The notes beneath the pieces are model-generated. The model made no database searches, was not told where the DNA came from, and worked only from the letters and a program-made list of their open reading frames with translations. Made by a program: the position numbers and the translations under genes. A DNA stretch of 64,000 nt from the human T2T-CHM13v2.0 reference genome, Homo sapiens, in assembly GCF_009914755.1 (NCBI RefSeq), contig NC_060936.1, one strand, 5' to 3'. Positions 22,957-28,067 of the stretch are shown here, in pieces. The first letter of the stretch is position 1; the number at the start of each line of letters is the position of its first letter.

Positions 22957-23282
22957 TCAGACCTGGCCCTTCACATCCTTCAGATCCCCCAGCACCTGTT
23001 CCAAGTGCCTGACATCCAGATATGCCACCAAGCCGTCCTGGCTGGCCCAGGCTGCTGCCTCTTGGTTGCCTGGCACCAGTTGGTGGTAGGTGTGCTGAGG
23101 CGGGGACCCTTGTCCCTCCACACCAAGCAAAGCCAGCTTTCCCTCCAGCTTCACCACGCCTCCACCTAGGCCCAGCGACACAGCATGGGGGCCACAGATG
23201 TCTCAAGCAAACCTGCAGCCTTCTGAGAGCATGTAGGCATCAGCCAGACCCAGTGCCATGCACAGCAGCTTGTAGCCTGCAT
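22957..23282 (-). pseudogene. INPP1-like terminal exon: AGYKLLCMALGLADAYMLSEGCRFA*DICGPHAVSLGLGGGVVKL...PQHTYH...WASQDGLVAYLDVRHLEQVLGDLKDVKGQV*
   Basis: Compare INPP1 GAGYKSLCVVQGLVDIYIFSEDTTFKWDSCAAHAILRAMGGGIVDL...PQLVYH...WANKGGLIAY; one continuous frame with the W of the WD motif mutated to TGA (23205-23203). Confidence 0.92.
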
Positions 23283-23796
23283 CTAAGCACAGGAAAGGGT
23301 GAGGGGATATGAGGAGGGTGAGGGGATATGAGGAAGGTGAGGAAGAAAGAAGGGATCCAGAATCAAGGGAAAAGAACAGTTGAGGAGAGTTGGGAGAGGG
23401 GTGAGGAAAAACCGGAAAGTGAGAGACATAGAGGAGGGTGGGAGGCATGGGGAAGGATGGGGGAAGAGGAGGCAAAAATACATGAAGGATCAATGCTTCT
23501 TGGGCTTCAGTTTAAAAAACATTTTCTTTAATTTTTGAAAAATAGGTGTAAGAGAGGAGTGGGGAGAGGGAAGAGGAAGAGATAGGGATGGGAGGGAAGA
23601 AGGAAACAAGGATGCATCATCAAAGCCATCCCCCCACTGGGAGGGTAAGGAGAGTGGTGGATAAAATTCAAGGTCCAGAGGTTGGGTCTGAAATGGGGGC
23701 CTGAAATTTAAGTCCAGAGGCCTCAGCTTTGGATAAGGATAGAGGCACGGTGCTTGATGGCATCTCTCAGATCGCAGGGTGAAGGAGGGGCTGCAC

Positions 23797-23965
23797 CTGC
23801 GCGTTTGCAGGTCCTGCTGGCAGAAAAGCTCATAGACCATCCCGCAGGGCTCTCCAGAGAGTAGGTTATATGCCCCAGCACCAGCACTGAGTGCAGCCCC
23901 CAGGGGAGTACTGTGCACGGGCTCCACGGCGACATCACCACTATGTATTTACTGGTTGGTGGAGA
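23797..23965 (-). pseudogene. INPP1-like exon D: (V)[18 protein letters not shown](fs)[10 protein letters not shown](fs)GAYNLLSGEPCGMVYELFCQQDLQTRR
   Basis: Compare INPP1 DSTYQYIKGSAD...FPCGLQCVTILIGVYDIQTGVPLMGVINQPFVSRDPNTLR; TAA at 23951-23949; ccccag| acceptor and AG|GT phase-2 donor. Confidence 0.85.
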
Positions 23966-23988
23966 CTGGGGAACACAAAGGAGTCTCC

Positions 23989-26610
23989 AGGCCAGGCGCG
24001 GTGGCTCACGCCTATAATCCTAGCACTTTGGGAGGCCGAGGCGGGTGGATCACCTGAGGTCAAGAGTTTGAGACCAGCCTGGACAACACAGTGAAACCCC
24101 ATCTCTACTACAAATACAAAAATTAGCCAGGTGTGGCCAGGGCGGTGACTCACGCCTGTAATCCCAGCACTTTGGGAGGCCAAGGCAGGCGGATCACGAG
24201 GTCAGAAGTTCGAGACAGCCTGACCAACGTGGTGAAACCCCGTCTCCACTAAAAAATACAAAAATTAGCCGGGCATTGTGGCGCACGCCTGTAATCCCAG
24301 CTACTCAGGAGGCTGAGGCAGGAGAATCACTCTAACCCCGGGAGGCGGCGGTTGCAGTGAGCTGAGAACACGCCATTGCACTCCAGCCTGGGCAACAGAG
24401 CGAGACTCTGTCTCAAAAAAAAAAAAAAATTAGCCGGGCGTGGTGGTGCACACCTATAATCCCAGCTACTCAGGAAGCTGAGGCAGGAAAATTGCTTGAA
24501 CCTGGAAGGCAGAGGTTGCAGTGAGTCAAGATCATGCCACTGCACTCCAGCTTGGGCAACAGAGTGAGACTCCATCTCAAAAAAAAAAAAAAAGGAGTCT
24601 TCCAGTCACTGGGTGGCCATCTCTGCTCCAACTTTTTGGGGGAGGCCACACCCTTCATAATTGGCAAGACTACATTACCATGGTATCCAGAAGAACATAT
24701 TGCCAAAGTCCCTTTTTTATCTCACTTCCAGGAAAGTGGGGCTCAGAGAGGTAAAGCCACTCACTCAGGGTCAACAGATCAACCTGCACGTAAGAATCTG
24801 GGTCTTTTTTTTTTTTTTTTTGAGATGAAGTCTCACTCTGTCACCCAGGCTGAAGTGTAGTGGCACTCAGCTCCCCAAAACCTCCGCCTACCAGTTTCAA
24901 GTGATTCTCCTGCCTCAGCCTCCCGAGTAGCCGGGATTACAGGCTGTAGCCCGCCACCACACCTAGCTAATTTTTTTAATTCTTTTTTATTTTTTTCCGA
25001 CAGAGTTTCGCTCTTGTTGCCCAGGTTGGAGTGCAATGGCGCGATCTCAGCTCACTGCAACCTTTGCCTCCCAGGTTCAAGCGATTCTCCTGCCTCAGCC
25101 TCCTGAATAGCTGGGATTATAGGTGCCCACCACCACGCTGGCTAACTTTTTGTATTTTTAGTAGAGACGGGGTTTCACCATGTTGGTCAGGCTGGTCTTG
25201 AACTCCTGACCTCAAGTGATCCACCTGCCTTGGCCTCCCAAAGTGCTGGGATTACAGGCGTGAACCACCACACCCTGCCAGGGTCTTGATGTACCACTCC
25301 AGTGCTGTCACACCTGCCGCCAGCAAGAAGCTCTCTGAGGCCAGAAGCCCTGGTGTGAGACCTGGTTCTGCTGCTCATGAATGGGGTGACCTCTCTCCCT
25401 GAGCCTCAGCTTTCTCCCAGTTGAGTAGGAGGGAAACAACTCCCTTCCCCACCTCACAGGGCAGTTGTGAGGATCACAGAATAAACTAAGGGAATTGGTT
25501 TTATTACTTTAAGAATGGTGGCCAGGCCGAGTGCAGTGGCTCATGCCTGTGACCTAGCACTTTGGGAGGCTGAGGTGGATGGATAGCCTGAGCTCAGGAG
25601 TTTGAGACCAGCCTGGACAACACAGTGAAATTCCATCTCTACTAAAATACAAAAAATTAGCCGGGCGTGGTGGCATGCACCTGTAGTCCCAGCTACTCGG
25701 GAGGCTGAGGCAGGAGAATTGCTTGAACCTGGGAGGCAGAGGTTGCAGTGAGATCACAGCACTGCACTCCAGCCTGGGTGACAGAGCAAGACTCCATCTC
25801 AAAAAAATAAAAAAATAACAGAAAAATGGTGGCTGGGCACAGTGGCTCACACCTGTAATACCAGCACTTTGGGAGGCTGAGGCGGGCGGATCACCTGAGG
25901 TCAGGAGTTCAAGACCAGCCTGACCAACATGGACAGGCCCCCGTCTCTACTAAAAATACAAATTAGCTGGGTGTGGTGGCACATGCCTGTAATCCCAGCT
26001 ACTGGGGAGGCTGAAGCAGGAGAATCACTGGAACCCGGGAGACGGAGGTTGCCGTGAGCCAAGATGGTGCCATTGCACTCCAGCCTGAGCAACAAGAGGG
26101 AAACTCCGTCCCAAAAAAACAAAACAAAACAAAACAAAAAAAAGGAACGGTAAGGCTTGGCTGGATGTGGTGGCTCACACCTGTAATCCCAACACTTTGA
26201 GAGGCTGAGGTAGGAGCCCAGGAGTTCGAGATCAGCCTGGGCAAGACGGTAAAACCCCATCTCTATAAAAACAAAAACGGTCGGACGCAGTGGCTCACAC
26301 CTGTAATCCCAACACTTTGGGAGGCCGAGGCGGGTGGATCACCTGACGTCAGGAGTTCAAGACCAGCCTGGCCAACATGGCGAAACCCTGTCTCTACTAA
26401 AAATACAAAAAAATTAGCTGGGCATGGTGGCATGTGCCTGCAGTCCTAGCTACTCGGGAGGCTGAGGCAGGAACATTGCTTGAAACCGGGAGACGGAGCC
26501 TGCAGTGAGCCGAGATCATGCCACTGCACTCCAGCCTGGGCAACAGAGCAACACTCCTGGATCAGCCCATCTGCCAGCGTTTTGAGGTCCTTCTCCAAAG
26601 ACCTCAAAAA
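23989..26610. mobile_element. Alu cluster filling the intron between INPP1-like exons C and D (nested + Alus 23989-24592, - Alus 24805-25280, + Alus 25519-26610)
   Basis: Multiple Alu consensus matches. Confidence 0.9.
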
Positions 26611-26982
26611 ACAAACAAAAAAGAATGATGAGGCTTTATCATACCCTGTTTTTAGACTCATGGGAATTAAAATGATTTTGCTTTGAGAAATATCTGGATA
26701 CCCCACCCCAACTGACATAGCCAAGGTAGGGGTGGGAGGGACAATCCAGCCTCCTTCTGCCCCTCACACTCACCTTGGCCTTGGCCTTGGCCTAGACCCC
26801 CCAATTCAAGCCCCAAGGTCTAGCTCCTCTGGCAACCCCACACTCCAGCCCCACCCCCACCAGGATCTGTCCTCAGGGCCCGCCTCAATTCCTTTCCCCA
26901 TTTCTTGGGCCCCTAGTTCCTGACCTCTGGCCCCTCATTGTCACTCCTGTCCCAGTCTCTTCCCAGCCAGTGCCATCATTAA

Positions 26983-27192
26983 CAACGAGGTCCATCCAAA
27001 TGCCCAGCTGGTGAGTGGGCAGGATGAACAGCTCCAGCCCATCCTGCTTGAGAGCCTCGTCCAGGTTCATGTCTTGTTTATGCACTCCCTTGGCCAGGAT
27101 CTTAGCTGCTGTGTGGTTCTGGCCCAGAACCAGGCACAGGAGCACAGAGGTATCTACCTGAGAGTCACAGAGCCTCACAACTAAAGTTTTTC
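26983..27192 (-). pseudogene. INPP1-like exon C: GKTLVVRLCDSQVDTSVLLCLVLGQNHTAAKILAKGVHKQDMNLDEALKQDGLELFILPTHQLGIWMDLV
   Basis: Compare INPP1 GEKITLRLCSTEEETAELLSKVLNGNKVASEALARVVHQDV...ILGIWVDPID; phase-1 acceptor intact, donor degenerate (G|TTAAT). Confidence 0.88.
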
Positions 27193-27558
27193 CTAGGATG
27201 GAACAGAGATAAACATAGGAGAAATGACAAAGAGGTGATGCTGGGACTGGGTGGTTATCTCAGGTTTCTGTTCCTTGGGACTAAAAGGCCAAGAGGCCTA
27301 GGCAGGGGCTCAGGAAAAATTCATTCATGTATTAATCCATGTATGGGGAGCCTAAACATGGAGATAAGTAAGACATGTCCCTGCCTTCAGGGTGCTTACA
27401 ACCTTATAGGCACAGACAAAAAATACAGTGTGGTGAGAGGGCTATGACAAAGAGAACCCCTGGGTTCTGGAAGCTGCCTAGCACAGGCTGGGGGATGCAG
27501 TGGGGCAGCAGAGGACCTGAGATACCTGCCAAAGAAGAAGGGCCTGTGGCAGACTCAC

Positions 27559-27619
27559 CCAGGCTGTTCTCAAATTTGTTGGGTTGTTCCCCATGGATGT
27601 GGTCTTGCAGCCCAGGGAA
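27559..27619 (-). pseudogene. INPP1-like exon B (61 nt): FPGLQDHIHGEQPNKFENSL(G)
   Basis: Compare INPP1 FPGLEKNIFGEESNEFTNDWG; ctag| acceptor and G|GTGAGT donor intact. Confidence 0.9.
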
Positions 27620-27880
27620 CTAGGGGTGAGGAGTGCTGGCACCCCTCGGTAGAGCCCAGACCAGTTTCTCCTGCCCTCACCAATTTCAGGCTCCCATTCC
27701 CAGATCCCAGCCAGACCCGCTGGTCGTCCTGACACCCTCACCGTTCACACACACACACATGCCCCTCATCTGACAACTTTGACCTTCACTACCCTCTGCT
27801 TTCTCCTTCATTCCCTCTGGAGAGAGAATTCCCTCTGAACACTCCTGCAGTTCCCCCCTGCTTCCCAACAGCTCCCTCAC

Positions 27881-28067
27881 CTGGCAGCCCAGGTACTGCT
27901 TTGTCGCCTCCTGGATCAGCCCATCTGCCAGCATTTTAAGGTCCTTGGAGAAGCTGACATTGCACTTAGACCCGTTCTTTTCCTGGAGCAGCAGCTGGAA
28001 TAGTGGTGCCTCCTGCTGGCAGCATTGGCCACTGCCAGAAACAGGGCCTGTAATGAGGACCCACCAT
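27881..28067 (-). pseudogene. INPP1-like exon A: M..LQALFLAVAN(fs)[48 protein letters not shown]
   Basis: Compare INPP1 CRQQEALFQLLIEEKKEGEKNKKFAVDFKTLADVLVQEVIKQNMENK; CAG|GTGAGG phase-0 donor; frameshifts near the 5' end. Confidence 0.88.

What the first reader, a model, noticed from the sequence alone, without database searches (positions are those of the whole stretch)
22957..28067. Hidden multi-exon INPP1-like pseudogene between CD63 and GDF11
Seen: five collinear - strand exons (28067-27881, 27619-27559, 27192-26983, 23965-23797, 23282-22957) with GT-AG signals. The first four have compatible phases (0,1,1,2). They translate to [23 protein letters not shown] | FPGLQDHIHGEQPNKF | RLC...LGIWMDLV | STNQ*I...GAYNLLSGEP..QQDLQTR | AGYKLLC..GLADAYMLSE..FA*DICGPHA..LGGGVV..WASQDGLVAY. 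Knowledge: these align in order with INPP1, the Li+-sensitive Mg-dependent phosphatase of the IMPase/BPNT1/FBPase (FIG) superfamily. Inference: the introns and heavy divergence mean this is neither a retrocopy nor a recent duplicate, but a dead second INPP1-type gene. The ORF track splits it into unrelated-looking fragments. I do not recall an annotation for it, but cannot check.
Basis: partly seen in the sequence, partly recalled or inferred. Interest (0 to 1): 0.95.

Follow-up and report, generated by a model that had tools for sequence, protein, structure and literature searches.

The report
Dead INPP1 twin beside GDF11
Between CD63 and GDF11 lies the decayed, intron-bearing remnant of a second inositol polyphosphate 1-phosphatase gene, which birds, reptiles, caecilians and fishes still keep intact; it is an ordinary kind of object (a unitary pseudogene) with an informative history.

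Summary
Window 22957-28067 (minus strand) carries five collinear pieces that match INPP1 in order. In three-frame PDB searches bovine INPP1 was the top hit in two of three frames (E 2.4e-13 and 4.4e-10). Exon sizes (61/210/169 nt) and intron phases (0,1,1,2) mirror human INPP1 on chr2 (204/61/201/175/559 nt; same phases).

The gene is dead:
- two in-frame TGA stops;
- exon 3 donor GT changed to TT;
- no in-frame start codon;
- the first third of the last exon degraded, with no in-phase acceptor;
- DPIDST changed to DLV(V)ST and EE to EQ;
- 36 of 101 family-invariant residues changed, against 0-6 in intact controls.

It is not a decayed copy of chr2 INPP1. It is closer to intact "INPP1" proteins of sauropsids, caecilians and fishes (about 50% against 38% identity in the last exon). 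It nests among the amniote members of that clade (98/97 support). The AU test rejects a clade with canonical INPP1 (p 0.0004).

ORMDL1-MSTN-INPP1 on chr2 mirrors ORMDL2-GDF11-relic on chr12 in order and orientation. The relic is therefore most likely the lost GDF11-linked ohnolog.

RefSeq lists nothing here, and nine paper searches found no description. GENCODE could not be checked. The time of death is unresolved.

The parts
27881..28069 (-). Relic of coding exon 1. Robust homology runs from 28027 to 27881, equal to INPP1 residues about 20-68. The N-terminal ~20 codons (28028-28069 and upstream) are degraded, with an apparent 6-codon gap over the SEKAA helix. There is no in-frame ATG; the ATG at 28067 is in another frame. 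The donor CAG|gtgagg is intact, phase 0.
   Evidence: (E 1.4e-7 against human INPP1; 6.7e-10 and 1.2e-9 against P0004 and P0006).
27559..27619 (-). Relic of exon 2, 61 nt, exactly the length of INPP1 exon 2. Acceptor AG and donor GT (gtgagt) are intact, phases 0 to 1. The metal-site pair E79-E80 reads E-Q here (GEES has become GEQP).
   Evidence: (14 of 20 identical to Alligator, Dermochelys, Anolis and Salmo). The signature residues come from passages of PMC7948987.
26983..27192 (-). Relic of exon 3, 210 nt against 201 in INPP1. The acceptor AG is intact. The donor is mutated to TT at 26982-26981. It ends in W-M-D-L-V where the family has W-[IV]-D-P-I.
23966..26982 (-). Intron 3, 3017 nt. At least 2049 nt are masked repeats in the supplied table (four stretches, 23983-26559); where they were translated they read as Alu-type sequence. 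It also holds a 39-nt copy of part of exon 1 at 26554-26592 (37 of 39 identical to 27908-27946), which abuts an Alu-like sequence.
   Evidence: The hub's repeat list; (Alu-type hits).
23797..23965 (-). Relic of exon 4, 169 nt against 175 in INPP1. Acceptor AG and donor GT are intact, phases 1 to 2. The split codon that should give D156 gives V. There is an in-frame TGA at 23949-23951 (S-T-N-Q-stop-I where relatives have S-T-N-Q-Y-I).
   Evidence: Not detected with bovine or human INPP1 alone.
22957..23282 (-). Well-preserved 3' two thirds of the last exon, equal to INPP1 residues about 284-389, ending in a TGA stop at 22957-22959 at about the same place as in relatives. There is an in-frame TGA at 23203-23205, at the Trp before D317. 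The AG at 23284-23283 is out of phase with exon 4.
   Evidence: E 2.4e-13; E 1.35e-29 against P0004.
23283..23451 (-). Degraded 5' third of the ancestral last exon. The frame is open but the sequence is CT-rich, with only faint similarity (L-L-S-S-S against V-L-S-S-S-E). No AG acceptor in the required phase lies anywhere in 23283-23560.
   Evidence: The similarity here was not shown to exceed chance.

Best explanation
This is a unitary, unprocessed pseudogene: the decayed human copy of a second vertebrate INPP1-type gene, called clade B here. The ancestral gene encoded a Mg2+-dependent, Li+-sensitive inositol polyphosphate 1-phosphatase of the IMPase/FBPase fold. It had the same five coding exons and intron phases as INPP1.

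INPP1 (clade A, beside MSTN on chr2) and clade B (beside GDF11 on chr12) arose together with MSTN/GDF11 and ORMDL1/ORMDL2 in a block duplication before bony fishes and tetrapods split. That duplication was most likely one of the two vertebrate whole-genome duplications.

Clade B stays intact in birds, crocodilians, turtles, lepidosaurs, caecilians, bowfin and teleosts. On the human line it lost constraint and now cannot make an enzyme.

Shown here: the homology, the gene structure, the lesions, the clade membership and the human paralogon.
Inferred: assignment to the whole-genome duplications, linkage of clade B to GDF11 in non-mammals, enzymatic activity of clade B, and the lack of any present function.
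For: Homology and collinearity.

Gene structure:
- Human INPP1 coding exons are 204/61/201/175/559 nt with intron phases 0,1,1,2.
- The relic has 61/210/169 nt middle exons with the same phases, and 7 of 8 junction signals are canonical.

Lesions:
- In-frame TGA stops at 23949-23951 and 23203-23205.
- Exon 3 donor reads TT.
- No in-frame ATG.
- No in-phase acceptor for the last exon.
- Against the family signature D54...E79E80...D153-P-I-D156-S-T...D317 (passages of PMC7948987), the relic reads E80Q, P154L, I155V and D156V. All 16 intact clade-B proteins aligned keep the acidic residues.
- 36 of 101 columns invariant in those 16 proteins plus human INPP1 are changed in the relic, against 0-6 of 101-107 in leave-one-out controls.
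- CpG observed/expected is 0.03-0.16 over 27000-28999, and there is no CpG island at the relic's 5' end.

Clade membership:
- Last-exon identity is 49-54% to clade-B sauropsid and teleost proteins (49% to bowfin, 36-41% to the two caecilians), against 38 of 96 to human INPP1.
- The 40 best of 374 stored proteins by summed exon score are all clade B; the canonical INPP1 representative ranks 222nd.
- In the careful maximum-likelihood tree the relic sits inside the amniote B clade (98/97) and the tetrapod B clade (100/99). Canonical INPP1 falls outside fish plus tetrapod B (99/96). Two quick trees agree.
- The AU test rejects relic plus canonical INPP1 as one clade (p 0.000436).

Paralogon within the human genome:
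- chr2: ORMDL1 190.261-190.272 Mb (-), MSTN last exon 190.5466 Mb (-), INPP1 190.8497-190.8610 Mb (+).
- chr12: relic 55.6990-55.7041 Mb (-), GDF11 (+), ORMDL2 55.7857-55.7870 Mb (+).
- Order and relative orientation are the same once one block is flipped.

No third INPP1-type locus was found in the human genome.
Against: - Synteny of clade B with GDF11 in non-mammals was not tested, because no non-human eukaryote genome was available. The only hint is that most bird records lie on 2-6 Mb sequences. That fits a microchromosome rather than the MSTN chromosome, but the reading rests on recalled knowledge.
- Canonical INPP1 sits on a long stem (0.72) and the relic on a very long end branch (1.75-2.2). 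Long-branch effects could therefore distort the A/B split and the AU test. The AU group was also named after a first tree had been seen.
- Clade A is represented by human INPP1 and unnamed representatives only.
- Only 2 in-frame stops are seen, and no frameshift inside exons 2-4 or the last 107 codons. That is fewer than the amount of residue change predicts. The timing, and even a late period of function in mammals, remain open.
- Pfam scans of the single ORF pieces found nothing at E up to 10.
- Transcription was not examined.
Confidence: 0.85

Rival explanations
1. The chr12 locus is the original INPP1 gene of vertebrates. Chr2 INPP1 is a later, mammal-lineage duplicate that took over, after which the original decayed. 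On this reading the non-mammal 'INPP1' genes are simple orthologs of the relic, and no whole-genome duplication is involved.
For: - The relic groups with the non-mammal proteins.
- Most of those proteins are named plain 'inositol polyphosphate 1-phosphatase' by their sources.
- Canonical INPP1 has a long stem branch of 0.72, as a fast-evolving young copy might.
Against: - A young mammalian duplicate should be sister to the relic within amniotes. The AU test rejects that clade (p 0.0004), and canonical INPP1 falls outside fish plus tetrapod B (99/96).
- INPP1 lies beside MSTN in the same order and orientation as the relic beside GDF11, with ORMDL1/ORMDL2 on the far side. A single-gene duplication would not produce that.
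- The unnamed representative P0247 joins clade A at a depth (path 0.71 to human INPP1) equal to the turtle-caecilian path in clade B. This suggests old, non-placental A members.
Confidence: 0.07
2. The locus is not dead. It still makes a product, such as a truncated protein, a regulatory RNA, or an element serving GDF11 or CD63, and that slows its decay.
For: There are fewer stops and frameshifts than the residue divergence predicts. Seven of eight splice signals are intact. The locus lies only 5.7 kb from the GDF11 start.
Against: - There are two in-frame stops, a lost donor, no start codon and a phase clash between exons 4 and 5.
- Two acidic residues of the metal-site signature, E80 and D156, are replaced.
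- 36% of invariant residues are changed.
- The region is CpG-depleted and has no island.
- The supplied RefSeq table has no transcript or functional element here.
Confidence: 0.05
3. It is a decayed segmental duplicate or fragment copy of human INPP1 from chr2.
For: Human INPP1 is the only other matching locus in the genome.
Against: - The relic is closer to sauropsid and fish proteins than to human INPP1 in exons 3, 4 and 5.
- The AU test rejects the joint clade.
- Exon 4 is recognisable only through clade B.
Confidence: 0.02

Closest known systems
Human INPP1 (inositol polyphosphate 1-phosphatase), chr2q32, found here at T2T chr2:190849674-190860972
   Same: - Five coding exons with identical intron positions and phases (0,1,1,2).
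- An identical 61-nt exon 2.
- The same order of conserved blocks.
- The same head-to-head placement relative to an MSTN/GDF11-type gene.
   Different: - Only 31% identity to the relic over 364 aligned columns.
- INPP1 is intact and belongs to a different clade (A).
- The relic has stops, a lost donor and lost catalytic residues.
Clade-B 'inositol polyphosphate 1-phosphatase' and '-like' proteins of birds, crocodilians, turtles, lepidosaurs, caecilians, bowfin and teleosts (for example P0189 Alligator, P0194 Dermochelys, P0202 Sphenodon, P0216 Rhinatrema, P0220 Amia, P0024 Salmo)
   Same: These are the nearest relatives of the relic. Identity is 40-41% overall to sauropsids, and 49-54% in the last exon to sauropsids, bowfin and teleosts. 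The relic nests among the amniote members.
   Different: They are intact proteins of 370-420 residues that keep the full D...EE...DPID[SA]T...WD signature. Their chromosomal neighbours were not examined.
Unitary pseudogenes of human, that is, genes lost without a functional copy of the same orthologous group. The class is named from general knowledge and no example was examined here.
   Same: - It is intron-bearing and sits at the ancestral position.
- It carries disabling mutations.
- Functional orthologs exist in other vertebrates.
- No intact copy of the same clade exists elsewhere in the genome.
   Different: A sister ohnolog (INPP1) survives and may cover the function. The time and lineage of the loss are unknown.

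Membership tests
INPP1-type phosphatase (Pfam PF00459 Inositol_P; Li+-sensitive metal-dependent phosphomonoesterases) | Significant, collinear sequence similarity to INPP1 over the length of the protein | tested here: met
   PDB searches gave E 2.4e-13 and 4.4e-10, covering residues 17-65, 84-155 and 284-389. Exons 2 and 4 were confirmed with relatives. The Pfam HMM itself found nothing on the single ORF pieces.
INPP1-type phosphatase (Pfam PF00459 Inositol_P; Li+-sensitive metal-dependent phosphomonoesterases) | Signature D54...E79E80...D153-P-I-D156-S157-T158...D317 (passages of PMC7948987) | tested here: not met
   The relic keeps D54, E79, D153, S157, T158 and D317. It has E80Q, P154L, I155V and D156V, and a stop codon directly before D317. 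It descends from the family but cannot be an active member.
INPP1-type phosphatase (Pfam PF00459 Inositol_P; Li+-sensitive metal-dependent phosphomonoesterases) | INPP1 gene structure (five coding exons, intron phases 0,1,1,2) | tested here: met
   The exon 2 length is identical (61 nt). The first three introns lie at homologous codons. The fourth boundary is degraded on the acceptor side.
Unitary (unprocessed) pseudogene | Introns retained at the ancestral positions, so it is not a retrocopy | tested here: met
   compared.
Unitary (unprocessed) pseudogene | Disabling mutations and loss of constraint | tested here: met
   Two in-frame TGA stops, donor reading TT, no in-frame ATG and no in-phase last acceptor. 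36 of 101 invariant columns are changed, against 0-6 in controls.
Unitary (unprocessed) pseudogene | No intact gene of the same orthologous group elsewhere in the genome | tested here: met
   A turtle clade-B protein searched against the whole human assembly found only chr2 INPP1 (clade A) and this locus, plus one chance hit at E 0.126.
Unitary (unprocessed) pseudogene | Intact orthologs in other species at the syntenic position | tested here: inconclusive
   Intact clade-B proteins exist in many non-mammals, and the relic nests among them. Their genomic neighbours could not be read with these tools.
Ohnolog pair from the vertebrate whole-genome duplications | Both copies lie in paralogous blocks with conserved gene order | tested here: met
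   ORMDL1-MSTN-INPP1 on chr2 against ORMDL2-GDF11-relic on chr12, with the same order and relative orientation.
Ohnolog pair from the vertebrate whole-genome duplications | Duplication dated before the split of ray-finned fishes and tetrapods and after the invertebrate outgroups | tested here: inconclusive
   The trees place clade A outside fish plus tetrapod B (99/96) and both inside a vertebrate group (98 in the quick tree). However, the outgroups and the non-human A members are unnamed representatives, and long branches are involved.

The most novel reading that the evidence does not exclude
Hidden paralogy by reciprocal loss. The proteins that databases call INPP1 in birds, lizards, snakes and teleosts (zebrafish was not among the rows I saw listed) would be orthologs of this dead human gene, not of the human lithium-sensitive INPP1. 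Those lineages would have largely lost the MSTN-linked copy, while mammals lost the GDF11-linked one. Mammals would then lack an enzyme that other vertebrates have kept for more than 400 million years, and cross-species work on 'INPP1' would be comparing different genes.
Probability: 0.35. Interest if true: 0.65.

Novelty: new member of a known kind. Interest (0 to 1): 0.45.

Why it matters
- It adds a clean, datable case of ohnolog loss to the well-studied MSTN/GDF11 paralogon.
- It shows that vertebrates ancestrally had two INPP1-type enzymes.
- It flags a naming problem. The clade-B proteins are mostly labelled plain 'inositol polyphosphate 1-phosphatase', although they are closer to this relic than to human INPP1. 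This matters when non-mammal models are used for lithium or inositol-phosphate biology.
- For human annotation, it explains conserved-looking coding fragments 5.7 kb upstream of GDF11 that might otherwise be read as regulatory conservation or a novel gene.

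Tried and rejected
- Pfam on seven single ORF pieces gave no family at E up to 10. The pieces are too short and too decayed.
I repeated it with stops read as X, as the task allows.
- tblastx of the whole 14-kb region against the INPP1 locus was swamped by Alu matches. I solved this by restricting the query to the stretches not masked as repeats.
- Exon 4 could not be shown with bovine or human INPP1. 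It needed clade-B proteins.
- A search for an in-phase acceptor for the last exon in 23283-23560 found none.
- The ESM Atlas look-up of the canonical representative gave only 'Chordata' and no finer taxa, so it could not show whether clade A exists outside mammals.
- Nine paper searches found no description of an INPP1 paralog or pseudogene beside GDF11. I saw listings only, except as follows.
  - The two papers holding 'INPP1b' (passages read) list it among miR-205 targets beside INPP4b and say nothing on an INPP1 paralog; I take it for a slip for another gene name.
  - For PMC7948987 I read passages only.
- Dating the loss gave conflicting signals: residue change and CpG depletion point to an old loss, while the few stops and frameshifts point to a younger one. 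I left this open.
- Chance similarity was rejected on the E-values, the shuffles and the fact that only two loci match genome-wide.

Full report
**What is there**

I translated 22801-28400 in its three minus-strand frames, with stops read as X, and searched all PDB sequences.
- In two frames bovine INPP1 (three distinct sequences: 1inp, 6wry, 7kio) was the best hit.
- One frame gave E 4.4e-10 to 6.2e-9, with two stretches equal to INPP1 residues 17-65 and 84-155.
- The other gave E 2.4e-13 for residues 284-389.
- The third frame gave no INPP1 hit among 9. All nine lie in the repeat-rich intron; the alignment shown is Alu-type sequence in an SLC3A2 isoform. This also shows what the background looks like.
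- A single ORF piece searched alone returned three hits at E up to 10, all INPP1.
- Pfam on seven single pieces returned nothing.

**Comparison with the real human INPP1**

The window's own assembly is searchable.
- The last pseudo-exon found INPP1's last exon at chr2:190860631-190860930 (E 2.7e-12, 38% identity). Apart from itself, the only other hit was a chance one at E 0.235.
- I fetched the locus and derived the coding exons from open frames and splice sites. They are 204, 61, 201, 175 and 559 nt, which make 399 codons plus the stop, with intron phases 0,1,1,2.
- tblastx between the stretches of the window not masked as repeats and this locus gave collinear hits exon by exon.
- The relic's middle exons are 61, 210 and 169 nt with the same phases, and the first three introns interrupt homologous codons.

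Junction signals in the relic:
- exon 1 donor gtgagg;
- exon 2 acceptor ag and donor gtgagt;
- exon 3 acceptor ag, but donor tt;
- exon 4 acceptor ag and donor gtgcag.

- The ATG at 28067 is in a different frame from the homology. In the homologous frame there is no ATG, and about six codons over the conserved S-E-K-A-A helix are missing.
- The acceptor at 23282 is out of phase with exon 4. In INPP1 and all relatives the last exon begins about 57-60 codons before the A-G-Y-K block.
- The corresponding stretch, 23283-23451, is an open but CT-rich frame with only faint similarity. No AG in the required phase exists in 23283-23560.

**It is dead**
- In-frame TGA codons lie at 23949-23951 (exon 4) and 23203-23205 (last exon, at the Trp before D317).
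- The family signature is D54...E79E80...D153-P-I-D156-S-T158...D317 (passages of PMC7948987). In the relic it reads E80Q, P154L, I155V and D156V.
- At 101 alignment columns invariant in 16 intact relatives plus human INPP1, the relic differs at 36. Each intact sequence, tested against the others, differs at 0-6 of 101-107.
- The exons and the 5' flank are CpG-poor (observed/expected 0.03-0.16 over 27000-28999, and about 0.19 in the exons by my own arithmetic's counts). The only CpG island nearby is GDF11's promoter.

**It is not a decayed copy of INPP1 but a member of a second clade**

Database searches:
- The last pseudo-exon, searched against the large protein database, found four proteins. 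Three were isoforms from a bird and one was an unnamed fish-like protein. Identity was 50-52%, well above the 38% to human INPP1.
- Searches with the fish-like protein and with one of the bird isoforms listed 120 proteins each.
- The fish query returned teleost proteins.
- The bird query returned birds, a crocodilian, turtles, lepidosaurs, two caecilians, bowfin and other fishes.
- Nearly all are named 'inositol polyphosphate 1-phosphatase', and a few carry '-like'.
- No named row is a mammal. Rows from one source carry no names.

Exon-by-exon comparison:
- Exons 3, 4 and 5 of the relic score higher against most of these proteins than against human INPP1.
- Exon 4 is significant only against the tetrapod ones: 0 of 300 shuffles for 8 of 11 references, against 10 of 300 for human INPP1, and tblastn E 2e-5 with Alligator.
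- Of 374 stored proteins, the 40 best by summed exon score all belong to this clade. The canonical INPP1 representative ranks 222nd.

Trees:
- The careful maximum-likelihood tree had 29 rows. I chose 16 of the named proteins and 11 of the 150 representatives; the rest were left out for speed.
- It puts the relic inside the amniote part (98/97) of a tetrapod clade (100/99), which is sister to a fish clade.
- Human INPP1 and its 86%-identical representative fall outside that group (99/96).
- Two quick trees with other selections agree.
- Forcing the relic together with canonical INPP1 costs 22.5 log-likelihood units, and the AU test gives p 0.000436.
- Caveats: the relic's end branch is very long (1.75-2.2), canonical INPP1 has a long stem, and I named the AU group after seeing the first tree.

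**Origin**

Within the human assembly:
- MSTN's last exon lies at chr2:190546621-190546998 (-), 85% identical to GDF11's.
- The ORMDL family has copies at chr2:190.261-190.272 Mb (-), chr12:55.7857-55.7870 Mb (+) and chr17.

So chr2 reads ORMDL1(-), MSTN(-), INPP1(+), and chr12 reads relic(-), GDF11(+), ORMDL2(+). That is the same order and the same relative orientations once one block is flipped. In both, the phosphatase gene is head-to-head with the MSTN/GDF11 gene.

Together with the tree, this makes a block duplication before the fish-tetrapod split the best account. Assigning it to the vertebrate whole-genome duplications rests on established knowledge of the 2q/12q paralogy, not on a test here.

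A turtle clade-B protein finds only these two loci in the human genome. Humans therefore have no intact clade-B gene.

**What stays open**
1. Annotation. The supplied RefSeq table has nothing between CD63-AS1 and GDF11, and nine paper searches found no description. I could not consult GENCODE or the pseudogene databases. Automated pipelines that use INPP1 as parent could well have flagged the last exon.
2. Timing. The share of changed invariant residues suggests roughly 0.2 substitutions per site of neutral evolution. That is my rough model, with recalled calibration, and it implies an old loss; the CpG depletion agrees. But two stops and no frameshift inside the four well-aligned blocks are fewer than that predicts. 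No other mammalian genome was available.
3. Synteny of clade B with GDF11 in non-mammals was not read. Most bird records sit on 2-6 Mb sequences, which fits a microchromosome, but this is only a hint.
4. Whether non-mammals keep the MSTN-linked copy. The unnamed representative P0247 is 62% identical to human INPP1, with a path of 0.71, equal to the turtle-caecilian path in clade B. P0316 and P0367 also join clade A.

**Verdict**

This is a real, well-preserved unitary pseudogene: the human relic of the GDF11-linked sister of INPP1. The kind of object is ordinary. The interest lies in the clean paralogon evidence, the wide survival of the intact gene outside mammals, and the likely mislabelling of that gene as INPP1.

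Noticed in passing
window 26554-26592 (minus strand), compared with 27908-27946: A 39-nt copy of part of relic exon 1 (the [13 protein letters not shown] stretch) sits inside intron 3 with 37 of 39 bases identical. It is followed directly by Alu-like sequence. It is probably a small duplication or template switch linked to the Alu insertion, and younger than the gene's death.
   Followed up: partly
window 23983-26559: The PDB hits from the read-through frames to SLC3A2 (4F2hc) isoforms, a GCP2 isoform, glycogenin-2 and others fall in the stretches masked as repeats; the one alignment shown is Alu-type sequence. They are background, not genes.
   Followed up: yes
L007/L008, chr2:190855258-190856235 (INPP1 intron 2): Open frames of 313-326 codons made of S-L-S-L-type low-complexity repeats lie in all three plus-strand frames just upstream of INPP1 exon 3. 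This is a long pyrimidine-rich simple repeat, not coding sequence.
   Followed up: no
window 33500-34499: The only CpG island in 22000-35000 (GC 0.74, CpG observed/expected 0.81-0.87) is at the GDF11 start. The relic's own 5' end has none.
   Followed up: partly
proteins P0004, P0130, P0139, P0181, P0185 (bird clade-B proteins): The bird members have a residue make-up that departs strongly from the rest of the family (treekit warnings). They lie on small sequences of mostly 2-6 Mb. Both points fit GC-rich microchromosomal genes.
   Followed up: no
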